Assembly (NCBI GenBank): GCA_965276885.1
Contig: OZ255702.1
Coordinates: 1,137,286 to 1,201,285, forward strand
Reading direction: 5' to 3'
DNA length: 64,000 bases
Source: Granulicella sp.
Lineage (GTDB): Bacteria > Acidobacteriota > Terriglobia > Terriglobales > Acidobacteriaceae
Made by a program: the position numbers and the translations under genes. Positions 3,583 through 45,743 of this stretch are shown here, in pieces (the stretch's first letter is position 1; every line of letters starts with the position of its first letter). The notes under the pieces are model-generated. The model searched no databases, had not been told where the DNA came from, and saw only the letters and a list, made by a program, of their open reading frames with translations.

Positions 3583-3797
3583 AGCAAATTCCCCACAGGT
3601 GTACAGTGTCATCTCGACTGGAGCGGGACAGTTTTATCGTCCCGCGTAACGGAGAGACCCCTGTATTTCGCCCGGGGCGTCGAAACATCTGTGTAGCCAC
3701 AAATGAATACAGGGTCTTTCCACTCCGCCCATTCGACTCGCTTTGCTCGCTCAGGGCTCCGGTCGAGATGACACTGCATAGGGAGAGGTAAACCGTT
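3583..3797. repeat. Family E miniature element (about 215 bp) with internal inverted GTCATCTCGA-type repeats
   Basis: Bounded by TTAG and CTAA; internal inverted pair at 3608-3624 and 3756-3772; parts recur at 18585-18737 and 41700-41787. Confidence 0.75.
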
Positions 3798-10578: not shown

Positions 10579-10708
10579 GGAGGCTCTGATTAAATCCTGC
10601 TACCGGGAAGGGCATGGCTTCAGCCATGCCGTAAGTGCCCTGCTTGCAACGCGCCTTTAGGCGCTGAGGTCAGCTCGATGCTGCTCTGGGTATTTGATCA
10701 GACCTTCC
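10579..10708. repeat. Family A miniature element, copy A1
   Basis: Ends GGAGGCTCTGATTAA and TTGATCAGACCTTCC; two hairpins with TTCA/TTTA loops; flanked by CTAA on both sides. Confidence 0.8.
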
Positions 10709-10712
10709 CTAA

Positions 10713-10832
10713 GGAATCTCTGAATAAGTGTCTGTCTGGAAGGGCGGGAACTTTATAGCGGTTCGCCGTAAATCCAGTAACAGCAACGCGACTTTAGCCG
10801 CTGAGATACGTTCGCTGACGATCAGACCTTCC
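10713..10832. repeat. Family A miniature element, copy A2 (tandem with A1)
   Basis: GGAATCTCTGAATAAG...GATCAGACCTTCC followed by CTAG; close to copies at 43308 and 45584. Confidence 0.8.
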
Positions 10833-17584: not shown

Positions 17585-18176
17585 GAGCTTGTTGAATAAC
17601 GTATAAGGCACGCGAGATTGCTGGGATGTTGTGGGGCAGCAGCGGTGATTGTTGTTTGAACCGAGCCGCAGGCCTGCATATACGAGTTTTGCTAGGCCGT
17701 TGAAAAGGCCGTTACCGGCCTTTCAGTGTCTTTCAGGCACACTGCTCCCCGAGCACTTCCGCGCTTTGTTGCGCGATCAGCCGGGTGCAGGATTGTGCGC
17801 GGCGCAGCTGAAGACGAGCATCCAGTCCACCTTGTGCCGCCCGCGCAGCTTCACCTGGCGCAGCGGCCGGTCTGCTTGAGCCACCCAAAGCTCTTTTCGA
17901 CCAGCCAGCGGCAGCTCAGGCTGATCGCGTAGCCGGGGTGCCGGGTGGTCCTGGCATTCATGTTGGAGCGCCGTCCGTTGTCGTTCTTGGTGATGTGCGG
18001 CGTGAAATTCAACTTGCGCGCGGCGGCGGCGAAGTCCTCGCTGTCTAGGCCTTATCGGCGCCCACGGTGATGCGCCGCGAGCGGCCCTTCCGCTTTTCTC
18101 CGGGCATCAGCAGCGCGGCTTCGCGCTCGGCAAAGCCGTCGACCTGGGTGGCCATCGCGGCCGCAATCAGGCCATT

Positions 18177-18211
18177 CACCCCAGCGCACAAGTGCGCCGG
18201 GGACCCCGGTT
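18177..18211. repeat. Family C short palindromic repeat inserted in the IS5 pseudogene
   Basis: CACCCCAGCGCACAAGTGCGCCGGGGACCCC is absent at the matching position of the intact paralog (about 44020). Confidence 0.75.
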
Positions 18212-18399
18212 GCGATTCTCCACCAGCACATGGCCCAGATACGCCAGGTATGACTCCTTGCCGTAGCTCTTCCTGTACAGCCGCGCGTCCGGATCGGTTC
18301 GATTCATGCGTCTCGTTGGAACGCTTGCCGCCATGGAAGTTGGTGCCGTCGTCATCCGAGCCGTCCTTGCGCCGGAAGCTCTTCTGCGACGCCCAGGCT

Positions 18400-18441
18400 T
18401 CTCACCCCACGGACGAAGACCTGTCCGTGGGGACCCCAATC
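18400..18441. repeat. Family C short palindromic repeat (42 nt) inserted in the IS5 pseudogene
   Basis: CACCCCACGGACGAAGACCTGTCCGTGGGGACCCC is absent at the matching position of the intact paralog (about 44208). Confidence 0.78.
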
Positions 18442-27149: not shown

Positions 27150-27282
27150 GGCGGTGAGGCCGTTCAGCCCTGAGGCCGGTGAGAGCCGAGCCTGCCTGTA
27201 GATCGGCCCCCGTCCCTCTCTTTTTGACGCCGTGGAGAATCGGAGGCCTTGTGAGCCTGCATGTTCAAGGTTGGCGGAAAGA
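27150..27282 (+). ncRNA. Predicted bridge RNA with target-binding and donor-binding loops
   Basis: Two stem / internal loop / hairpin modules carrying TTCAGCCCT plus GTAG (target) and GGAGAATC plus CAAG (donor). Boundaries approximate. Confidence 0.75.
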
Positions 27283-27345
27283 GCAAGTCCGTGCGGAGCG
27301 GACGCGGGACGGTGCCGAAGCTCAGGGTAAATCCGGAGGAGAGCG

Positions 27346-28356
27346 ATGGGCAAGGCAGCAGTTTCCAGTCAGGCGTTTTGCGGAATCGATGTCAGTGCGG
27401 CGACGCTTGCCGCGGCGGTTCAGCGTGGGGACCGGGAGGGGTTCGAGCAGCGCGAGTTCGCCAACTCTGCGGCCGGTCACCGCCAGCGGGTCGAGTGGCT
27501 GGGCAAGCGCGGTGCAATGGTCCGGGTGTCGCTTGAAGCCACCGGCATCTACTCGCTGGACGTGGCCCTGGCGCTCGATCGGGCCGGCGGCCTCGAGGTC
27601 GCGGTGCTCAACCCCAAGACGGTCAACCGGTTCGCCCAGACGCTACGGCGGTCCAAGACGGACGCGGTGGCGCTGGCCGAGTACAGCCTGCGGATGCCGT
27701 TCGTTCCTTGGCAGCGGCCCAGTCCGGTGGCGCTGGCGCCGCGGGCGATCAGCCGGCATAGCGCCGCGCTCACCCGGGATCCTACCCGGGCGAGCAACCG
27801 GTTGCACGCCGCCGAGGGCTCGGCCACGACCCCCCGCTGTGTGCGGGAGGATCTCAAACGTTCGATGGCTGGGTTCGGCAAGCGCATCGCGCGGCTGCGC
27901 AAGCAAGCGCTGGCGATGGTTCGCCAGGACGCCGTGTTGCAGCGGAAGTTCGAGCAGCTGGTGGCCATGCCGGGCATCGCCGAGACCAGCGCGGTGCAGC
28001 TGCTCAAGCGAACTGGCGGGACTGGACCCGAAGATGACGGTGCGTCAGTGGGTGGCCCACAGTGGGCTCGACCCGGCGCACCGGCAATCCGGCACGTCGA
28101 TCCATCTTCCGTCGCGCATCAGCCGCCACGGCAACAGCCATCTCCGGCGCGCGCTCTACATGCCGGCGCTCGTGGCCTCGCGGCGCGACTCCCATCCGAG
28201 GGCTTTTTCTCAGGCCCTGCTGGGCAGGCAAAAAACCAAGCTCCAGGCCATCATGGCCGTAGCCCGGAAACTGCTTCACGCCATCTTCGGTCTCTTCAAA
28301 ACAGGAACAGCCTACGATGGAGCAAACTCTTTCCCCAACTCGTACCCACTTCCTAG
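27346..28356 (+). pseudogene. IS110 recombinase with two compensating frameshifts
   Basis: GIDVS, LEATG, QSGTS, ISRHGN, ARKLLH; extra A near 28006 and missing A near 28325; KTDxxDA shortened to KTDA. Confidence 0.85.
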
Positions 28357-28440
28357 AAAATCTTTTGCTCTTACCCCAGCAAATCCCTTGCAATCCAAAG
28401 AGAGAATCTACGGCAAAACGGCCAAATACAAGGGGCTTCA

Positions 28441-28573
28441 GTGTGTGCGTGAGAACTCAATGACGATTGCCCAAAACCGTGTAAAACAGACTAAATTTGT
28501 ATAGAAAACGAGCGCCACGGGTCGTAGCAAATCATATAAATGCGCACGTCCGGATGAGTTCTCACGCAGACAC
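28441..28573. mobile_element. 133-bp MITE with 19-bp terminal IRs, inserted in a TTCA hairpin loop
   Basis: GTGTGTGCGTGAGAACTCA / TGAGTTCTCACGCAGACAC (1 mismatch); TTCA duplicated at 28437-28440 and 28574-28577. Confidence 0.85.
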
Positions 28574-29591: not shown

Positions 29592-29784
29592 GGACAATCT
29601 ATAGACGTCGGAAAGCCGGCAAAGGCCCCCTTTGTTCCCTGCCCCGGTCGCCTCCCGGGGTGACAACACCCCCCGCCGATGCACAGCATTCATGCGTGTC
29701 GTCTAAGGTAACCTCAGACGATCGTTGCAGGGGCGGCTGTCCGTAAAGGGGCGGGAGTTGCTAGGCTACTTTGGAGACCATCCC

Positions 29785-30435
29785 ATGATGAATTTCTTCA
29801 AACGCCGCGGCGGTGCGGGTGAGGGCAATGTACCGGAGCGCACGCGACAGTCGCGCGGCTGGGCCGAGGTGCTGAAATTCATGCGGAGCGAGCCGGCGCG
29901 ATCGTTGCGCGTGCTGGACTTCGGAACCACCTCGCCCACCAACATCAATCTGCTTACCTCGCTTGGCCACAGCGTGTACATGGCCAATATTGTGGGCGAG
30001 GCAACCAAGCCGGAGTGGCTGAAGGCCCCCGCGGCAGGAGCCCGTCCCAACGCGGCGCCGGAGTACGACGCGGAGCGGTTCGCGGCAGCCAACCTGGACT
30101 TCTCCGGCCGCGACTTCGACGTCATCCTGCTATGGGATACGGTGGATTACCTGCCGCCTGCGCTGGTGCCGGCGCTCTTTGACAGGCTGCGAACGGTCAC
30201 TCGCCCGGAGGGCCGCCTGCTGGGCTTCTTTCACGGCAAGGCGGATGGGCCAAATACAGGCTATGCGCGCTATCAGGTTACCGATTCCGATCAGTTGCGG
30301 CTTTTGGGAAGCGATCCTTTGCCCATCCGGCAGATTATCCAGAACCGCCAGGTTGAGCGCTATCTTGAAGGCTTCACCACGATCCGGTTCTTTCAGGGTG
30401 TCGATAACGTCCGCGAGGTCATCGCGGTTCGCTAG
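29785..30435 (+). CDS. Class I SAM-dependent methyltransferase-like protein
   Basis: RVLDFG motif I; FDVILLWD motif; GGAG before ATG 29785. Confidence 0.7.
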   Translation: MMNFFKRRGGAGEGNVPERTRQSRGWAEVLKFMRSEPARSLRVLDFGTTSPTNINLLTSLGHSVYMANIVGEATKPEWLKAPAAGARPNAAPEYDAERFAAANLDFSGRDFDVILLWDTVDYLPPALVPALFDRLRTVTRPEGRLLGFFHGKADGPNTGYARYQVTDSDQLRLLGSDPLPIRQIIQNRQVERYLEGFTTIRFFQGVDNVREVIAVR

Positions 30436-30499
30436 TGTGATGTCCCGCAAGTTCGCTGCACAATTTGAGTTGTCATCCTTCTATGAAAAAGGCGCACCT

Positions 30500-30640
30500 G
30501 TCCAGGGGGTGATTGCGAATAGATTGCGTACAGTCTTCTATTCGTGCTCTGGGCACACAAGGGGGTTCGATTCCCGGCCGCTCCATCTGAGGATGACCTC
30601 AAGGGTCAAAGGATGAGCGAGCTGACCGGGCTACCTTGCA
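30500..30640 (-). ncRNA. Predicted guide (seek/bridge) RNA in the IS right end
   Basis: In element orientation: CGCTCA then GTCATCCT (target matches), then ATAGAAGA then ATCT (donor matches); closing stem CCCGGTCAGCTC / GAGCGGCCGGG. Boundaries approximate. Confidence 0.6.
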
Positions 30641-30703
30641 ACCGTCGCAAACACCGTTGAACTTCTTTTTCTTTTCCAGGCAGCTTTTGTTGTTGCCTAT
30701 TCT

Positions 30704-31723
30704 TCAACCCTGCCGCGCGAAGCTCTCTTCGTCGAAGCAGATTCCGTGGCGCAAAAGCGCCCAAACGGCGGTAAGCAGCTTGCGCGCCAGGGCGATCAGG
30801 GCCACCTGTGCGGGTTTTCGCTGCCTCAGCTTCCGGTACCAGGCTCCCGCCGCGGGCGAGTGCCTGGCTGCGACTTGCGCCACCTGCAGCAGGATCCAGC
30901 GCAGTGTGCCTGATCCATGATGGCCGATGCCGCCGCGTTTGCGCTTGCCCGCCGACTCGCGCACCGACGGCGTCAGCCCGGCATAGCTGGCCAGCGCCCT
31001 TTTGCTCGGGAAGCGCTCGATCTCGCCGACCTCGGCCAGGATCACCATCGCTGAATAGGCCCCGATCCCGGGCACGGTCCGCAGCCAGCGGGCGCGCGCA
31101 TCGTCCTTGGCCATCCGCTCCAGCTCGCGGGTCTGGGTGGCGATGGCCTCGTCCATCTGGTCGATCACCTTTAGCCACACCTCGACCACCACGCGGGCCG
31201 CCGGACTCAACGCCAACCCCGCCAGCCACGCCCGGCCCTTCTTGCCGAACACATCGGCAACCGGCTTCAGAAAGCCTTCCTGATGCAGCACCGCCTGCAG
31301 CTGGTTCTTCGCCTTGGCCCGTTGCTGGCCCAGCGTAATCCGCAAGCGCGTCAGCAGGCGCGTCTGCTGCGTCCGTTGGTTCGCCATCCACGCCTCGGGC
31401 AGCAGGTCCGCCCGCGACAGCTGCGCCAGCGTCTCGGAATCCACCTTGTCATTCTTCAGCCGCGCCGACGCGATCGCCTTCATCCGTTGCGGATGCACCA
31501 TCACCAGACGCTCCGCCTCCGGCTGCACCGCCCGCGCGAACGCCGGCCAAAAGCCACTCGCCTCCATCACCACCTGGCGCGGTCCCGGAACCTGCCCCAG
31601 CCACTGCCGCAATGCCGCTCCTTGGTTGACCACCTGGCCCTGCTTCAACTTTTTGCCGCTTGCATCGACGGCGGTTAAATAGCAGAATCGCTGGTGTAGA
31701 TCTACTCCTACGTGGGTCTGCAT
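30704..31723 (-). CDS. IS110-family recombinase, apparently intact (339 aa)
   Basis: GVDLH, MEASG, KNDKVDS (DEDD); VPGIG; ESAGKR serine motif; ALARKLL. Confidence 0.93.
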   Translation of the reverse strand: MQTHVGVDLHQRFCYLTAVDASGKKLKQGQVVNQGAALRQWLGQVPGPRQVVMEASGFWPAFARAVQPEAERLVMVHPQRMKAIASARLKNDKVDSETLAQLSRADLLPEAWMANQRTQQTRLLTRLRITLGQQRAKAKNQLQAVLHQEGFLKPVADVFGKKGRAWLAGLALSPAARVVVEVWLKVIDQMDEAIATQTRELERMAKDDARARWLRTVPGIGAYSAMVILAEVGEIERFPSKRALASYAGLTPSVRESAGKRKRGGIGHHGSGTLRWILLQVAQVAARHSPAAGAWYRKLRQRKPAQVALIALARKLLTAVWALLRHGICFDEESFARQG

Positions 31724-31911
31724 GGCGTACCTCTCTCTGGATGAAATGTGTGCTTCGAGCACGTACCAGGAAGGTACGCCTCTCTTCATCCCATCTGAGC
31801 GGAGTTTGGCGCGTTTCTGCGCCAAACGGAGTCGAAGGATCTGCTTTCGTTCCGGTCGCTACACCGTTCCGATACCGGCCAATGTGCCGAAGTTCCGGGA
31901 CACCAGACTAG

Positions 31912-32077
31912 TGTGGTGAATCGGTAGTTCACTTCAAAAACTTGTCATCCTGAGCGCTGCCGGGGTCCCCAGCGAGCGTTGTTTGCTCGTTGGGGTGCAA
32001 GCGAAGGACCTGCTTTTCCATAGCTTACAAGCAGTACAAACGTCCGAATACCGCAACGAACTTTAGAACTCACCACA
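31912..32077. repeat. Family D-related element D2 containing a GTCATCCTGAGCG unit and a family C palindrome (31962-31997)
   Basis: Ends TGTGGTGA / TCACCACA, between CTAG and CTAA. Confidence 0.7.
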
Positions 32078-32081
32078 CTAA

Positions 32082-32239
32082 TGTGGTGTCCCAGAACTTC
32101 GATCCATATGTCGCGCCCTGAACCGTGTAGCCGACCGAAGCGAAAAGCAGGTCCTTCGACTGCGTTTTGCGCAAAAAGCGCGCCAAACTCCGCTCAGGAT
32201 GACAATTCAATTTATGCGACAAACTTGCGGGACACCACA
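32082..32239. repeat. Family D element D3 (158 bp), inverted near-identical copy of 43128-43285
   Basis: TGTGGTGTCCC / GGGACACCACA ends, flanked by CTAA and CTAG. Confidence 0.88.
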
Positions 32240-32306
32240 CTAGCGGGATTACAAAAAGAAAAAGGAGAGCATCGCCCTCCCTTTTTTCTATCCCCAAAAA
32301 ACCGTC

Positions 32307-35706: not shown

Positions 35707-35800
35707 GGGCCGTTTGGCGGCCTCAAAACCCGGCCCTGAAGAGCTTTGAAGGGGACTTCCGTTTACGCAGGCTAAAGCAAATAACATACCCCTAGACAGC

Positions 35801-35936
35801 GTCATCTCGACCGGAGCGCAGCGTAGTGGAGAGACCTGCAGTTTGTTGCGGTTGCAGGAGACTTGTAGCCGCGCGGAAGAACTACAGGTCTCTCCACTCC
35901 GCAAACGATGAAGCTGTTCGCTCCGGTCGAGATGAC
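35801..35936. repeat. Inverted pair of family B REP-like units
   Basis: GTCATCTCGACCGGAGC...GGAGAGACCTG versus CAGGTCTCTCC...GCTCCGGTCGAGATGAC. Confidence 0.8.
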
Positions 35937-41699: not shown

Positions 41700-41787
41700 A
41701 GCAAATTCCCATAGCTATGCAGTGTCATCTCGACTGGAGCGGGACGGTTTATCGTCCCGCGTAATGGAGCGACCCCTGTATTTCATT
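41700..41787. repeat. Family E element, left part
   Basis: After TTAG: AGCAAATTCCC...GTCATCTCGACTGGAGCGGGAC...CCCCTGTATTTC, matching 3583-3670. Confidence 0.75.
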
Positions 41788-43094: not shown

Positions 43095-43127
43095 GTCCTA
43101 TGGATCTAGAATTCGATCAGAACCTAA

Positions 43128-43285
43128 TGTGGTGTCCCGCAAGTTTGTCGCATAAATTGAATTGTCATCCTGAGCGGAGTTTGGCGCGCTTTTTGCGCCA
43201 AACGCAGTCGAAGGACCTGCTTTTCGCTTCGGTCGGCTACACGGTTCAGGGTGCGACATATGTATCGAAGTTCTGGGACACCACA
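43128..43285. repeat. Family D element D4 (158 bp, intact)
   Basis: TGTGGTGTCCC / GGGACACCACA ends, flanked by CTAA and CTAG. Confidence 0.88.
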
Positions 43286-43307
43286 CTAGAGTTTGACCAG
43301 AATCCAA

Positions 43308-43436
43308 GGAATCTCTGAATAAGTGTCCGTCTTGAAGGGGCGGGACTTTAGTCCCGCCGTAAATCCAGTAACAGCAACGCGGCTTTTAGCCGCTGAGGTA
43401 CGCTTTCGCTCGTTCCCGGACTTGATCAGACCTTTC
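43308..43436. repeat. Family A element, copy A4
   Basis: GGAATCTCTGAATAAG...TTGATCAGACCTTTC followed by CTAG. Confidence 0.82.
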
Positions 43437-43440
43437 CTAG

Positions 43441-44716
43441 GAGCTTGTTGAAATAACTGCTGATCGATGCGGTTCTGCTGAAGATTTGCTCCTGGGGAGC
43501 TTTTGTTGATGGATAGCTTGGTTTGTATTGGAGGCTGGCGAGTGTTTTTGAACACTCAACCTGTTTTCAGGCGCACTGCTGCTCGGGGCCCTGCGCGGCT
43601 TGTTGCGCGATGAGCCTGGGGAGGCGCAGGAGGTTGTGCGCGGCGCAGCTAAAGACGAAGGTCCAATCCACCTTGGCCAGACCGCGCACCTTCACCTGGC
43701 GCACCGGCCCGGTCTGCTTCAGCCAGCCGAAGCTCTTTTCGACCAGCCAGCGGCAGCTCAGGCTGATCGCATAGCCGGGGTGCCGGGTGGTCCTCCCGTC
43801 CATGTTGGAGCGGCGGCCCTTGTTGTTCTTCGTGATGTGCGGCGTGACATGCAGGCTCCGCGCGGCGACGACGAAATCCTCCGCGTCGTAGGCCTTGTCC
43901 GCGCCCACGGTGATGCGTCGCGTGCGGCCCTGCTGCTTGTCGGCCAGCATCAGCAGCGCGGCGTCGCGCTCGGCAAAGCCATCGGCCTGGGTGGCCATCG
44001 CGGCGGCGATCAGACCGTTCCGGTTCTCCACCAGCACATGGCCCAGGTAGGCCAGCTTCGACTCCGTGCCGTAGCTCTTCTTGTACAGCCGGGCCTCCGG
44101 ATCGGTGGTCGATTCATGGGTCTTGTTCGACCGCTTCTCCCCGTGGAAGTTGGTGCCGTCGTCGTCCGAGCCGTCCTTTATGCGAAAGCTCTTGTGCGAC
44201 GCCCACGCTTGAATCAAGGTGCCGTCGACAGTGAAGTGCTCATCGCTCATAAAACCCTTCGCCTGCTGAACCACCGCGGCGAAAAACTGTTGCGCCACGT
44301 CCGAGGTCAGCAAACGGTCGCGGTTTTTCGAAAACACCGCGTGGTTCCAAACCGCATCGTCCATGCCCAGGCCCACAAACCAGCGGAACAGCAGGTTGTA
44401 GTCCAGCTGCTCGACCAGCTGCCGTTCCGAACGCACTGAATAGAACGCCTGCAAGAGCAGCGCCCGCAGCACATACTCGGGCGCGATCGAAGGCCGCCCC
44501 GAAGCCGAATACAGGCTGTCAAACTCTTCGCTCAACGAGCGCAAAACAACGTCCGTCAGCCGACGAATCTCCCGCAGCGGATGATCCTGAGGCACACGCT
44601 GCTCCAACGTCACATAGCTGAACATCCCACCCTGCAACCGCTCGTCTCCACGCATACTCCATAGACGAAATAACCCTCAAATCCGCCGAAATACTGGAAC
44701 CTTTTTCAACAAGCTC
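43441..44716 (-). mobile_element. IS5-family insertion sequence, 1276 bp
   Basis: IRs GAGCTTGTTGAAA / TTTCAACAAGCTC, flanked by CTAG and CTAA. Confidence 0.92.
43567..44655 (-). CDS. IS5-family DDE transposase
   Basis: RVPQDHPLR; SERQLVEQL; VDGTLI; TTDPEARL; GADKAYD; RWLVEKSFGW. Confidence 0.93.
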   Translation of the reverse strand: MRGDERLQGGMFSYVTLEQRVPQDHPLREIRRLTDVVLRSLSEEFDSLYSASGRPSIAPEYVLRALLLQAFYSVRSERQLVEQLDYNLLFRWFVGLGMDDAVWNHAVFSKNRDRLLTSDVAQQFFAAVVQQAKGFMSDEHFTVDGTLIQAWASHKSFRIKDGSDDDGTNFHGEKRSNKTHESTTDPEARLYKKSYGTESKLAYLGHVLVENRNGLIAAAMATQADGFAERDAALLMLADKQQGRTRRITVGADKAYDAEDFVVAARSLHVTPHITKNNKGRRSNMDGRTTRHPGYAISLSCRWLVEKSFGWLKQTGPVRQVKVRGLAKVDWTFVFSCAAHNLLRLPRLIAQQAAQGPEQQCA

Positions 44717-45554: not shown

Positions 45555-45583
45555 CTCCAAGAGAGCTTCCGCGGAATACCTAA

Positions 45584-45743
45584 GGAATCTCTGAATAAGT
45601 GTCTGTCTGGAAGGGGCGGGACTTTAGTCTGAAATGGCAGGACTTTAGTCTGAAGGGGCGGGACTTTAGTCCCGCCGTAAATCCAGTAACAGCAACGCGG
45701 CTTTAGCCGCTGAGGCACGTTCGCTGACTTGATCAGACCTTCC
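45584..45743. repeat. Family A element, copy A6, with an internal 3 x 21 bp expansion
   Basis: Flanked by CTAA; GAAGGGGCGGGACTTTAGTCT-like unit repeated three times at 45610-45672. Confidence 0.82.

What the first reader, a model, noticed from the sequence alone, without database searches (positions are those of the whole stretch)
30432..31911. Intact IS1111-type IS110 inserted in a second repeat family, with matching guides in its right end
Seen: in element orientation the target is CCGCTC-AG-GATGAC and the junction is CATAGA-AG-ATGGG. Downstream of the stop, the transcript reads CGCTCA (30619-30614, left target), then GTCATCCT (30597-30590, 8/8 complement of core plus right target), then ATAGAAGA (30541-30534, 8/8 donor) and ATCT (30524-30521). 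Three unoccupied GTCATCCTGAGCG sites lie at 31944, 32191 (reverse) and 43164. The DEDD residues and serine motif are intact. Established: IS1111-group elements encode guide RNAs in the right end. Inference: a potentially active RNA-guided element aimed at the abundant GTCATCCTGAGCG repeat. Caveat: the donor matches can also pair with each other as a stem, so their guide role is less certain.
Basis: partly seen in the sequence, partly recalled or inferred. Interest (0 to 1): 0.82.

Follow-up and report, generated by a model that had tools for sequence, protein, structure and literature searches.

The report
IS1111-type insertion sequence with bridge RNA

Summary
A 1317-bp IS110-family element lies on the minus strand at 30478-31794. 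It splits a roughly 175-bp MITE-like host repeat at CCGCTC-AG-GATGAC. It has an intact 339-aa DEDD/Ser transposase, subterminal inverted repeats and a 226-nt non-coding region 3' of the gene, which is the IS1111-group layout.

Thirty-six related copies from soil metagenomes and Terriglobales genomes, plus about five copies in this genome, all sit at CTCAG|RATGA(C). The 3' region folds into a conserved multiloop RNA with compensatory changes.

The guide assignment needs revision:
- **Right-target guide:** UCAUYCU (30616-30610), on the 5' strand of the internal loop.
- **Left-target guide:** CUCAG (30591-30587), on the 3' strand. This order is the published IS1111 order.
its first two bases belong to a hairpin stem and read ACAT or similar in 35 of 36 relatives.
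a chance-level match that does not track target changes.
part of the closing stem.
supported as the donor (right-end) guide.

Verdict: a new member of a known kind, of modest interest.

The parts
30478..31794 (-). The insertion sequence, 1317 bp, counting one copy of the AG core at its right end.
   Evidence: blastn alignments to about 25 relatives end exactly at element positions 1 and 1317. An empty-site form, GTCATCCT|GAGCGGAGTTTG, is seen in the same organism's DNA runs.
30704..31723 (-). Transposase gene, 339 aa, with D8, E54, D92, D95 and S257.
   Evidence: Pfam DEDD_Tnp_IS110 (1.2e-17) and Transposase_20 (1.1e-24). The serine aligns with the ES-G motif of IS621.
31772..31789 (-). Left subterminal inverted repeat ATGAAGAGAGGCGTACCT, 5 nt in from the left terminus ATGGG.
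   Evidence: Local alignment of the left end with the reverse complement of the right end. Both arms change together in relatives.
30483..30499 (-). Right subterminal inverted repeat AGGTGCGCCTTTTTCAT, followed by the terminal AGA plus the AG core.
30513..30651 (-). Predicted bridge/seek RNA core, a multiloop closed by stem P1. The P1 5' strand is 30651-30638 and the 3' strand is 30527-30513.
   Evidence: RNAalifold on 27 sequences. 98.7% of cells are paired and 5 pairs show compensatory changes, against 0 of 500 shuffles and 0 in slid controls. The change from AUCU to AUCG in L062, L064 and L067 is matched by G to A in the 5' strand.
30573..30630 (-). Target-binding stem-loop. The outer stem is CCCGGUC-A-GCUC paired with GAGC-GGCCGGG, enclosing an internal loop and an inner hairpin (30607-30595).
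   Evidence: Three of the 5 inner-hairpin pairs show compensatory changes.
30610..30616 (-). Right-target guide UCAUCCU on the 5' strand of the loop. It is complementary to top-strand AG-GATGA (core plus right target).
   Evidence: Conserved as UCAUYCU in 36 of 36 copies. Y tracks the first base of the right flank: with U the flanks are A 8, G 1; with C they are G 17, A 8 (Fisher p = 0.0056). IS5075 has AAAACGGAA, the reverse complement of TT+CCGTTTT, at the same place.
30587..30591 (-). Left-target guide CUCAG on the 3' strand of the loop, identical to the top-strand left target plus core. It is followed by AUGG (30586-30583), identical to the first 4 nt of the left end.
   Evidence: L060 reads CGCCAG and its left flank is GCGCCAG, two changes on both partners. 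L119 and L120 have the flank TCCTCAG, which matches UCCUCAG 7 of 7.
30590..30597 (-). CAUCCU is in the loop, but GU is the 3' strand of the inner hairpin, paired with AC of UGACC.
   Evidence: Only this copy reads GGTCAT. The 34 other copies in which this segment was extracted read G[GTAC]ACA[TC] (L119 was not extracted), and L119/L120 read GUACAUU. The difference is a U-A to A-U flip of one stem pair (columns 47 and 74).
30534..30541 (-). Donor (right-end) guide AUAGAAG(A) in the multiloop junction, identical to the right-end terminus plus core.
   Evidence: AUAGAAG is invariant across relatives, as is the right-end terminus CATAGAAG. IS5075 has AUAGAUU against its own right end CATAGATT. Family B has AUGGAUGAC against its right end CATGGATGAC.
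30543..30559 (-). Small hairpin UGUGUGCC-N-GAGCACG just 5' of the donor guide.
   Evidence: helix 5. The loop varies in sequence and length.
30499..30504 (-). TGGACA, a possible -35 box of a junction promoter (TGGACA, 17 nt, GAAG|AT) that forms only in the circular form.
   Evidence: Script scan of the joined ends: 5/6 plus 3/6 matches. TGGACA is nearly invariant in relatives. This is weak and inferred.
30432..30477 (-). Right half of the interrupted MITE-like host repeat, from GATGAC to the terminal inverted repeat.
   Evidence: 83-86% identical to the copies at 32196-32245 and 43124-43171.
31795..31919 (-). Left half of the interrupted host repeat, ending in CCGCTCAG.
   Evidence: 81-82% identical to 32070-32197 and 43170-43292.
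31944..31956 (+). Empty target site GTCATCCTGAGCG.
32191..32203 (-). Empty target site GTCATCCTGAGCG.
43164..43176 (+). Empty target site GTCATCCTGAGCG.

Best explanation
This is a potentially active IS1111-group member of the IS110 family. The proposed cycle is as follows.
- A DEDD/Ser recombinase excises the element as a circle that joins CATAGA-AG-ATGGG.
- A structured RNA of about 140 nt, encoded between the stop codon and the right end, binds the recombinase.
- One internal loop of the RNA reads the target on both strands. UCAUCCU (30616-30610) pairs with top-strand AG-GATGA. CUCAG (30591-30587) pairs with bottom-strand CTGAG. The next bases, AUGG, match the incoming left end.
- A multiloop segment, AUAGAAG (30541-30535), pairs with the bottom strand of the right-end terminus plus core.
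- Recombination at the shared AG core inserts the element into CTCAG|GATGA inside an abundant host repeat.

Shown here: element anatomy, strict target specificity, conserved RNA structure, and guide-target co-variation. Inferred from the published family mechanism: RNA expression, RNA-protein binding, circle formation and strand-exchange chemistry.
For: - Pfam domains and catalytic residues are present.
- The element has subterminal inverted repeats, a 71-nt left and a 226-nt right non-coding end.
- All 31 left and 31 right flanks of relatives give (C)GCTCAG|RATGAC, and conservation collapses beyond -7 and +6.
- In DNA runs of the same organism the element's depth is 4.4-5.1 times that of the unique flank. 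Every branch shares CTGAGCG on one side and TTGAGTTGTCATC on the other.
- The RNA structure has 98.7% of cells paired and 5 compensatory pairs, against 0 of 500 shuffles.
- The Y of UCAUYCU tracks the target R (p = 0.0056).
- L060 carries a double compensatory change in CUCAG and its left flank.
- IS5075, a bona fide IS1111 member, and a family at 40% amino-acid identity show the same layout.
- The guide order agrees with PMC11187229. The multiloop donor site agrees with PMC11208160.
Against: - No RNA-seq run was found, so the transcript and its ends are unobserved.
- No circle junction appeared in the contig-level DNA data.
- No guide for the left end (right donor) could be identified.
- Eight of 25 A/G right flanks of C-variant copies carry an A at +1, a C-A mismatch, so that position is tolerant and the association is statistical. 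It may also be inflated by shared ancestry or host repeat composition.
- Support for the left-target guide rests mainly on one variant lineage (L060).
- The junction promoter is weak (3/6 in the -10 box).
- The serine motif reads S-A-G rather than the usual S/T-G.
Confidence: 0.8

Rival explanations
1. The left-target guide is CGCUCA (30619-30614) on the 5' side and the right-target guide is GUCAUCCU (30597-30590) on the 3' side, as in IS621-type bridge RNAs. AUCU (30524-30521) is the right-donor guide.
For: The matches are exact in this copy, and the 8-mer is seen in only 3.7% of shuffles. CAUCCU on the 3' strand is conserved in most relatives. C-to-U changes in CGYUCA would still wobble-pair with the bottom-strand G.
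Against: - GU of GUCAUCCU is in a hairpin stem and differs in 35 of 36 relatives with the same target.
- L125-L127 read CACCCU, although A at +2 is invariant in targets.
- CGYUCA does not follow the left-target variants in L060 or in L119/L120, whereas the 3' segment does.
- AUCU pairs within P1, and its change to AUCG is compensated inside P1 rather than in the left end.
- The order is opposite to that reported for IS1111 seekRNAs and to IS5075.
Confidence: 0.12
2. Target choice is made by the protein, or by similarity between the element ends and the target. The left end contains GGATGA, like the target. On this view the conserved 3' RNA-like region serves another role, such as an end-binding site or a regulator.
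For: The left end ATGGGATGAAG and the target AGGATGAC share GGATGA. The non-coding region also holds the right inverted repeat, which must be conserved as DNA.
Against: - Compensatory base-pair changes point to selection on an RNA fold.
- Loop bases co-vary with flanks (L060).
- seekRNA and bridge RNA dependence has been shown experimentally for IS1111 and IS110 members (PMC11187229, PMC11208160).
Confidence: 0.04
3. The copy is an inactive relic that only looks intact.
For: No circle junction or excision joint was seen in the contig data. The serine motif is SAG rather than SG. The junction promoter is weak.
Against: The reading frame and catalytic residues are intact. About five near-identical copies with only a few variant positions exist in the genome. 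The inverted repeats and RNA fold are intact. Contigs drop rare forms, so absence of circles means little.
Confidence: 0.1

Closest known systems
IS1111-group insertion sequences with a seekRNA (ISEc11, ISPa11, ISKpn4, ISPst6; Siddiquee et al. 2024, PMC11187229)
   Same: The transposase is 339 aa, the same length as TnpEc11. The element has subterminal inverted repeats with short terminal extensions and a long non-coding region downstream of tnp. The segment complementary to the top strand lies 5' of the one complementary to the bottom strand, and the two overlap at the insertion point. Insertion is strictly site-specific into a repeated sequence.
   Different: A different target (CTCAG|RATGA in acidobacterial repeats) and host phylum. 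The motif after GL-P---- reads S-A-G instead of S/T-G. No experimental data exist. The transposase is only about 25% identical to IS5075/IS4321.
IS4321/IS5075 (IS1111 family, target the Tn21 terminal repeats)
   Same: The transposase aligns over its full length (aa 5-323). The RNA layout is the same: 5' loop strand = reverse complement of core plus right target, then an inner hairpin, then 3' loop strand = left target. An AUAGAnn segment equals the right-end terminus CATAGAnn, and its last two bases follow each element's own core (UU versus AG). A UUUGCG/CGCAAA-like closing stem is shared.
   Different: 25% protein identity, a different core (TT versus AG) and target. In IS5075 the bases after the left-target guide do not match its left end.
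IS621/ISCro4 bridge recombinases (IS110 group; PMC11208160, PMC11208158)
   Same: DEDD RuvC-like domain plus a Tnp domain with a catalytic serine. An RNA with an internal loop reads both strands of the target around a 2-nt core. The extra bases beside the left-target guide here look like the handshake guides of those systems.
   Different: In those elements the RNA is in the left end and the guide order is left then right. Their donor loop is a simple internal loop, whereas here the donor-matching bases sit in a multiloop. Only the C-terminal 124 residues align by phmmer.
ISPpu9/ISPpu10 and IS621: IS110-family elements that insert into REP sequences
   Same: They use an abundant short extragenic repeat as a safe landing site.
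   Different: Here the motif lies inside a roughly 175-bp MITE-like unit with its own terminal inverted repeats, and in other repeat contexts in relatives.

Membership tests
IS110 family (DEDD transposases) | N-terminal RuvC-like DEDD domain and C-terminal Tnp domain | tested here: met
   PF01548 at 1.2e-17 (aa 5-148) and PF02371 at 1.1e-24 (aa 212-296).
IS110 family (DEDD transposases) | Catalytic D, E, D, D and the conserved serine | tested here: met
   D8, E54, D92, D95 and S257 are present. S257, in RESAG, aligns with the ES-G of IS621 and ISCro4.
IS1111 group | Subterminal inverted repeats of 7-17 bp or more, set in from the termini | tested here: met
   ATGAAGAGAGGCGTACCT against ATGAA-AAAGGCGCACCT, starting 5 nt from each terminus. 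Relatives keep the repeat through paired changes.
IS1111 group | The long non-coding region lies downstream of tnp | tested here: met
   71 nt upstream against 226 nt downstream.
IS1111 group | Transposase related over its full length to IS1111-type transposases, 330-350 aa | tested here: met
   339 aa. It aligns over aa 5-323 with IS5075/IS4321 and over 1-337 with IS1328-like genes, but only over 209-332 with IS621 and ISCro4. No phylogenetic tree was built.
IS1111 group | GL-P----S(t)G motif | tested here: inconclusive
   The sequence is GLTPSVRESAG. G, L, P and S are in register, but the next residue is A and the G comes one position later. The paper notes that TA occurs occasionally.
Bridge RNA / seekRNA systems | A conserved structured RNA in the long non-coding end | tested here: met
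   Consensus fold across 27 sequences: 98.7% paired, 5 compensatory pairs, 0 of 500 shuffles reach this, and slid controls give 0. No Rfam family matches.
Bridge RNA / seekRNA systems | Two loop segments that match opposite strands of the target and overlap at the core, in IS1111 order | tested here: met
   UCAUCCU (complementary to the top strand) lies 5' of CUCAG (identical to the top strand). The order is as stated.
Bridge RNA / seekRNA systems | Guides co-vary with targets | tested here: met
   Y against R gives p = 0.0056. L060 shows a double change. The evidence is modest because the family uses essentially one target.
Bridge RNA / seekRNA systems | Donor-binding segments for both element ends | tested here: inconclusive
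   The right-end match AUAGAAG was found and is conserved. No convincing segment complementary to the left end was found.
Bridge RNA / seekRNA systems | The RNA is expressed, binds the recombinase and is required for transposition | not testable with these tools
   No RNA runs exist for this organism.

The most novel reading that the evidence does not exclude
The target loop carries the right-target complement twice: UCAUYCU on the 5' strand and CAUCCU on the 3' strand, directly abutting CUCAG-AUGG, which equals the left insertion junction. The loop strands would then be read in two registers, one before and one after strand exchange. That would be an extended 4-nt 'handshake' mechanism specific to IS1111-type RNAs, and in this copy a stem-pair flip has lengthened one register to 8 nt.
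Probability: 0.12. Interest if true: 0.5.

Novelty: new member of a known kind. Interest (0 to 1): 0.3.

Why it matters
The finding adds a well-documented natural example of an IS1111-type RNA-guided recombinase from Acidobacteriota, a phylum that did not come up in the few papers consulted here (no check against ISfinder or the published orthologue lists was possible). It comes with a clear 10-bp target, about 36 natural relatives and a conserved RNA fold. That makes it a reasonable candidate orthologue for bridge/seek recombinase screening. It is also a useful case for working out the IS1111 guide layout, which is less understood than that of IS621, particularly the missing left-end guide. 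It changes no concept: RNA-guided targeting of repeats by this family has been established since 2024.

Tried and rejected
- **Rfam:** gathering and E-value searches gave no family for the RNA.
- **Exact protein look-up:** nothing on record.
- **Scan of representative genomes:** only four close loci, because draft assemblies break at the element.
- **RNA runs:** none found. The four runs of the organism behave as DNA, with flat depth and long contigs.
- **Circle junction or excision joint:** none in the contig data.
- **Internal sigma-70-type promoter:** none found. The junction promoter candidate is weak.
- **Guide complementary to the left end (reverse complement of AGATGGGATG):**
  - CAUCCU on the 3' loop strand could pair with GGGATG through a wobble. 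It does not change in copies with left end ATGGTATG (L050) and does change in L125-L127 without a change in the left end, so I rejected it as unsupported.
  - CCCCCU in the multiloop was also unconvincing.
- **Family B (40% amino-acid identity):** used to test the layout. It works for L074, L075, L107, L116, L085 and L090. It fails for the L079-type flanks, where the element sits 11 bp from the end of a larger conserved segment, so this is supporting evidence only.
not kept in L062, L064, L067 or L060. The consensus fold pairs UCUAUUCGC with the 5' P1 strand instead.
Full report
**1. What is in the sequence**

Read on the minus strand, the region shows a host repeat ending in ...CCGCTCAG. Next comes ATGGGATGAAG... 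and a 339-codon reading frame (31723-30704). A 226-nt non-coding stretch ending in ...TTCATAGAAG follows, and then GATGACAAC... continues the host repeat.

The element proper is 30478-31794, 1317 bp with one copy of the AG core. blastn alignments to about 25 related elements stop exactly at these two positions.

GTCATCCTGAGCG occurs three more times in the window, at 31944(+), 32191(-) and 43164(+). The expected number is 0.18, and none of 100 shuffles reached 3. These sites lie in copies of a roughly 175-bp MITE-like unit with terminal inverted repeats (CTAGTGTGGTGTCCC). Three such units are packed together at 31795-32245.

**2. The protein**

The protein carries Pfam DEDD_Tnp_IS110 and Transposase_20 domains. 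D8, E54, D92 and D95 are present. S257 (RESAG) aligns with the ES-G serine motif of IS621 and ISCro4.

It aligns over nearly its whole length, at about 25% identity, with IS5075/IS4321, and at about 37% with IS1328-like genes. With IS621 and ISCro4, only residues 209-332 align.

The element also has three other IS1111-group features as defined in PMC11187229 and PMC11208160:
- subterminal inverted repeats that start 5 nt inside each terminus;
- a short left and a long right non-coding end;
- a length of 339 aa.

One small deviation is S-A-G where the family motif has S/T-G.

**3. Target specificity**

I collected 36 related copies (76-85% nucleotide identity). They come from soil and peat metagenomes and from Terriglobales, Granulicella and Edaphobacter assemblies.

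The 31 left and 31 right flanks give (C)GCTCAG | RATGAC. Positions -5 to -1 and +2 to +5 are nearly invariant, and conservation falls off beyond -7 and +6.

In four DNA runs of the window's own organism, the element's word depth is 4.4-5.1 times that of the unique flanks. Every assembly branch leaving the element shares CTGAGCG on one side and TTGAGTTGTCATC on the other. The repeat itself is about 17-26 times deeper than unique sequence.

The genome therefore holds about five copies, all at the same motif in an abundant repeat.

**4. The RNA**

The last 175 nt or so of the non-coding region are as conserved as the coding region (mean column identity 85%). They fold into a common structure with these parts:
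- a closing stem P1, UUUGCG-A-CGGUUGC (30651-30638) paired with GCAAUCU-AUU-CGCAAA (30527-30513);
- a long stem-loop (30630-30573) with an internal loop and an inner hairpin;
- a small hairpin (30559-30543);
- a single-stranded multiloop segment, AAUAGAAGACUGUAC.

On the alignment, 98.7% of cells pair and 5 pairs show changes on both sides. None of 500 shuffles reaches that, and slid controls give none. Rfam has no matching family.

**5. Where the guides are**

The chance test shows that an 8-mer match to the target occurs in 3.7% of shuffles and an 8-mer match to the donor in 6.4%. Both together occur in 0.18%. On a rough count, about one 6-mer of the CGCTCA kind is expected by chance in 226 nt on two strands. 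A 4-mer such as ATCT is uninformative.

The comparative data then relocate the guides.

(a) *Right-target guide.* The 5' strand of the internal loop reads UCAUYCU in all 36 copies (window 30616-30610). It is complementary to top-strand AG-RATGA. U-variants sit at A 8 times, G once and T once. C-variants sit at G 17 times, A 8 times and T once. Fisher's test on A against G gives p = 0.0056. The association is real but loose, because C-A is tolerated. It could also be inflated by shared ancestry.

(b) *Left-target guide.* The 3' strand reads CUCAG-AUGG (30591-30583), identical to the left target, the core and the first four bases of the left end.
- In L060 it reads CGCCAG-AUGG and the left flank is GCGCCAG, so two positions change on both partners.
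- In L119 and L120 the flank TCCTCAG matches UCCUCAG at 7 of 7 positions.

The 34 other copies in which this segment could be extracted read G[GUAC]ACA[UC], and L119/L120 read GUACAUU. The GU is the 3' strand of the inner hairpin. The window copy has flipped one stem pair from U-A to A-U, which lengthens the complementarity by accident or by selection. L125-L127 read CACCCU although A at +2 is invariant in targets.

(d) *ATCT.* This lies in the 3' strand of P1. Its change to AUCG in three relatives is matched by G to A in the 5' strand of P1, not by any change in the left end.

(e) *AUAGAAG.* This is invariant, as is the right-end terminus CATAGAAG.

**6. Outside checks of the layout**

PMC11187229 states that in IS1111 seekRNAs the segment complementary to the top strand lies 5' of the one complementary to the bottom strand, the reverse of IS110.

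PMC11208160 notes that many IS1111 bridge RNAs carry their donor-binding bases in a multiloop, as AUAGAAG does here.

I read IS5075 in a Tn21-type repeat on an E. coli plasmid. It shows the following:
- its RNA reads AAAACGGAA (the reverse complement of TT+CCGTTTT), then a hairpin, then UAUUUU (the left target);
- AUAGAUU equals its right end CATAGATT, so the last two bases follow each element's own core (UU there, AG here);
- it has a UUUUGC/GCAAAA closing stem.

A second family (40% amino-acid identity, 1.41 kb, 17-bp inverted repeats) has the same plan. Its 5' strand is the reverse complement of the right flank followed by GUC(A)U, the reverse complement of its right end. Its 3' strand is 2-3 nt of the left flank followed by CUUGAU, its left-end start. 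AUGGAUGAC equals its right end. This holds for L074, L075, L107, L116, L085 and L090, but not for the L079-type flanks.

**7. Mechanism and confidence**

The best explanation is the published IS1111/IS110 mechanism with the guide map above.

*Shown here:* anatomy, specificity, RNA fold and guide-target co-variation.

*Inferred:*
- transcription of the RNA, since no RNA data exist;
- circle formation, since none is seen in contig data, which drop rare forms;
- a possible junction promoter, TGGACA-17-GAAG|AT, which is weak, and there is no internal promoter-like site.

*Open:* the guide for the left end was not found.

**8. Novelty and verdict**

This is an unnamed but ordinary member of the IS1111 group from Acidobacteriota. 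It has many close relatives: 2520 proteins at E <= 1e-30, and the top 120 are at least 77% identical.

Interest is modest. The element is a good natural data set for the IS1111 guide layout and a candidate orthologue for bridge-recombinase screening.

Noticed in passing
window 27346-28320 (+): A second IS110-family transposase gene about 2 kb away is frameshifted. The N-terminal DEDD part is in ORF 27346-28356, and the C-terminal part (HRQSGTS...RHGN) is in the frame of ORF 27179-28504. tblastn with diverse IS110 proteins hits 27995-28318.
   Followed up: partly
window 43567-44655 (-) and 17731-18400: An IS5-like DDE transposase (DUF772 plus DDE_Tnp_1) lies next to the third empty repeat copy. 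A degraded copy at about 85% identity, with no long ORF, lies at 17.7-18.4 kb.
   Followed up: partly
window 3587-3634, 35780-35827, 41703-41750: Another short repeat family has a core GTGTCATCTCGACYGGAGCG, which resembles the IS target motif but is distinct from it. It may be the landing site of the other IS110 element.
   Followed up: no
window 10605-10795, 43306-43386, 45582-45704: A repeat family built around the hairpin GGGGCGGGACTTTAGTCCCGCC, with nearby GACTTGATCAGACCTT repeats (28595, 43405, 45465, 45712).
   Followed up: no
window 31795-32245: Three MITE-like units (terminal repeats CTAGTGTGGTGTCCC) are packed against each other in alternating orientation. The IS occupies the outermost unit and the other two keep empty target sites.
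   Followed up: partly
window 30678-30698 (-): A conserved hairpin (AGGCA...UGCCU) followed by an A-rich run lies just after the transposase stop codon, upstream of the RNA core. It could be a processing or attenuation site.
   Followed up: no
L004/L079, L071, L073, L078, L095, L007 (family B): In these loci the 40%-identity relative sits 11 bp from the end of a conserved segment of more than 1 kb, and its RNA loops do not match those flanks. L070 combines the left flank of one site type with the right flank of another, which suggests recombination between copies.
   Followed up: partly
L120:2500-2800: A decayed family-A copy has the right end TTTCAGGAAG, an insertion in the outer stem (GAGCCATTGCCGGG) and AAAGATAGAAG. 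It sits at the same TCCTCAG|GATGAC kind of site as its intact twin L119.
   Followed up: no
L125, L126, L127: One element variant at three different sites, all AATGAC, carries the C form of the guide (UCAUCCU) and CACCCU on the 3' strand. Position +1 is therefore mismatch-tolerant.
   Followed up: yes
window 29725-30435 (+): The gene that abuts the interrupted repeat encodes a class I methyltransferase-like protein (Methyltransf_23). Its stop codon lies at the edge of the repeat.
   Followed up: no
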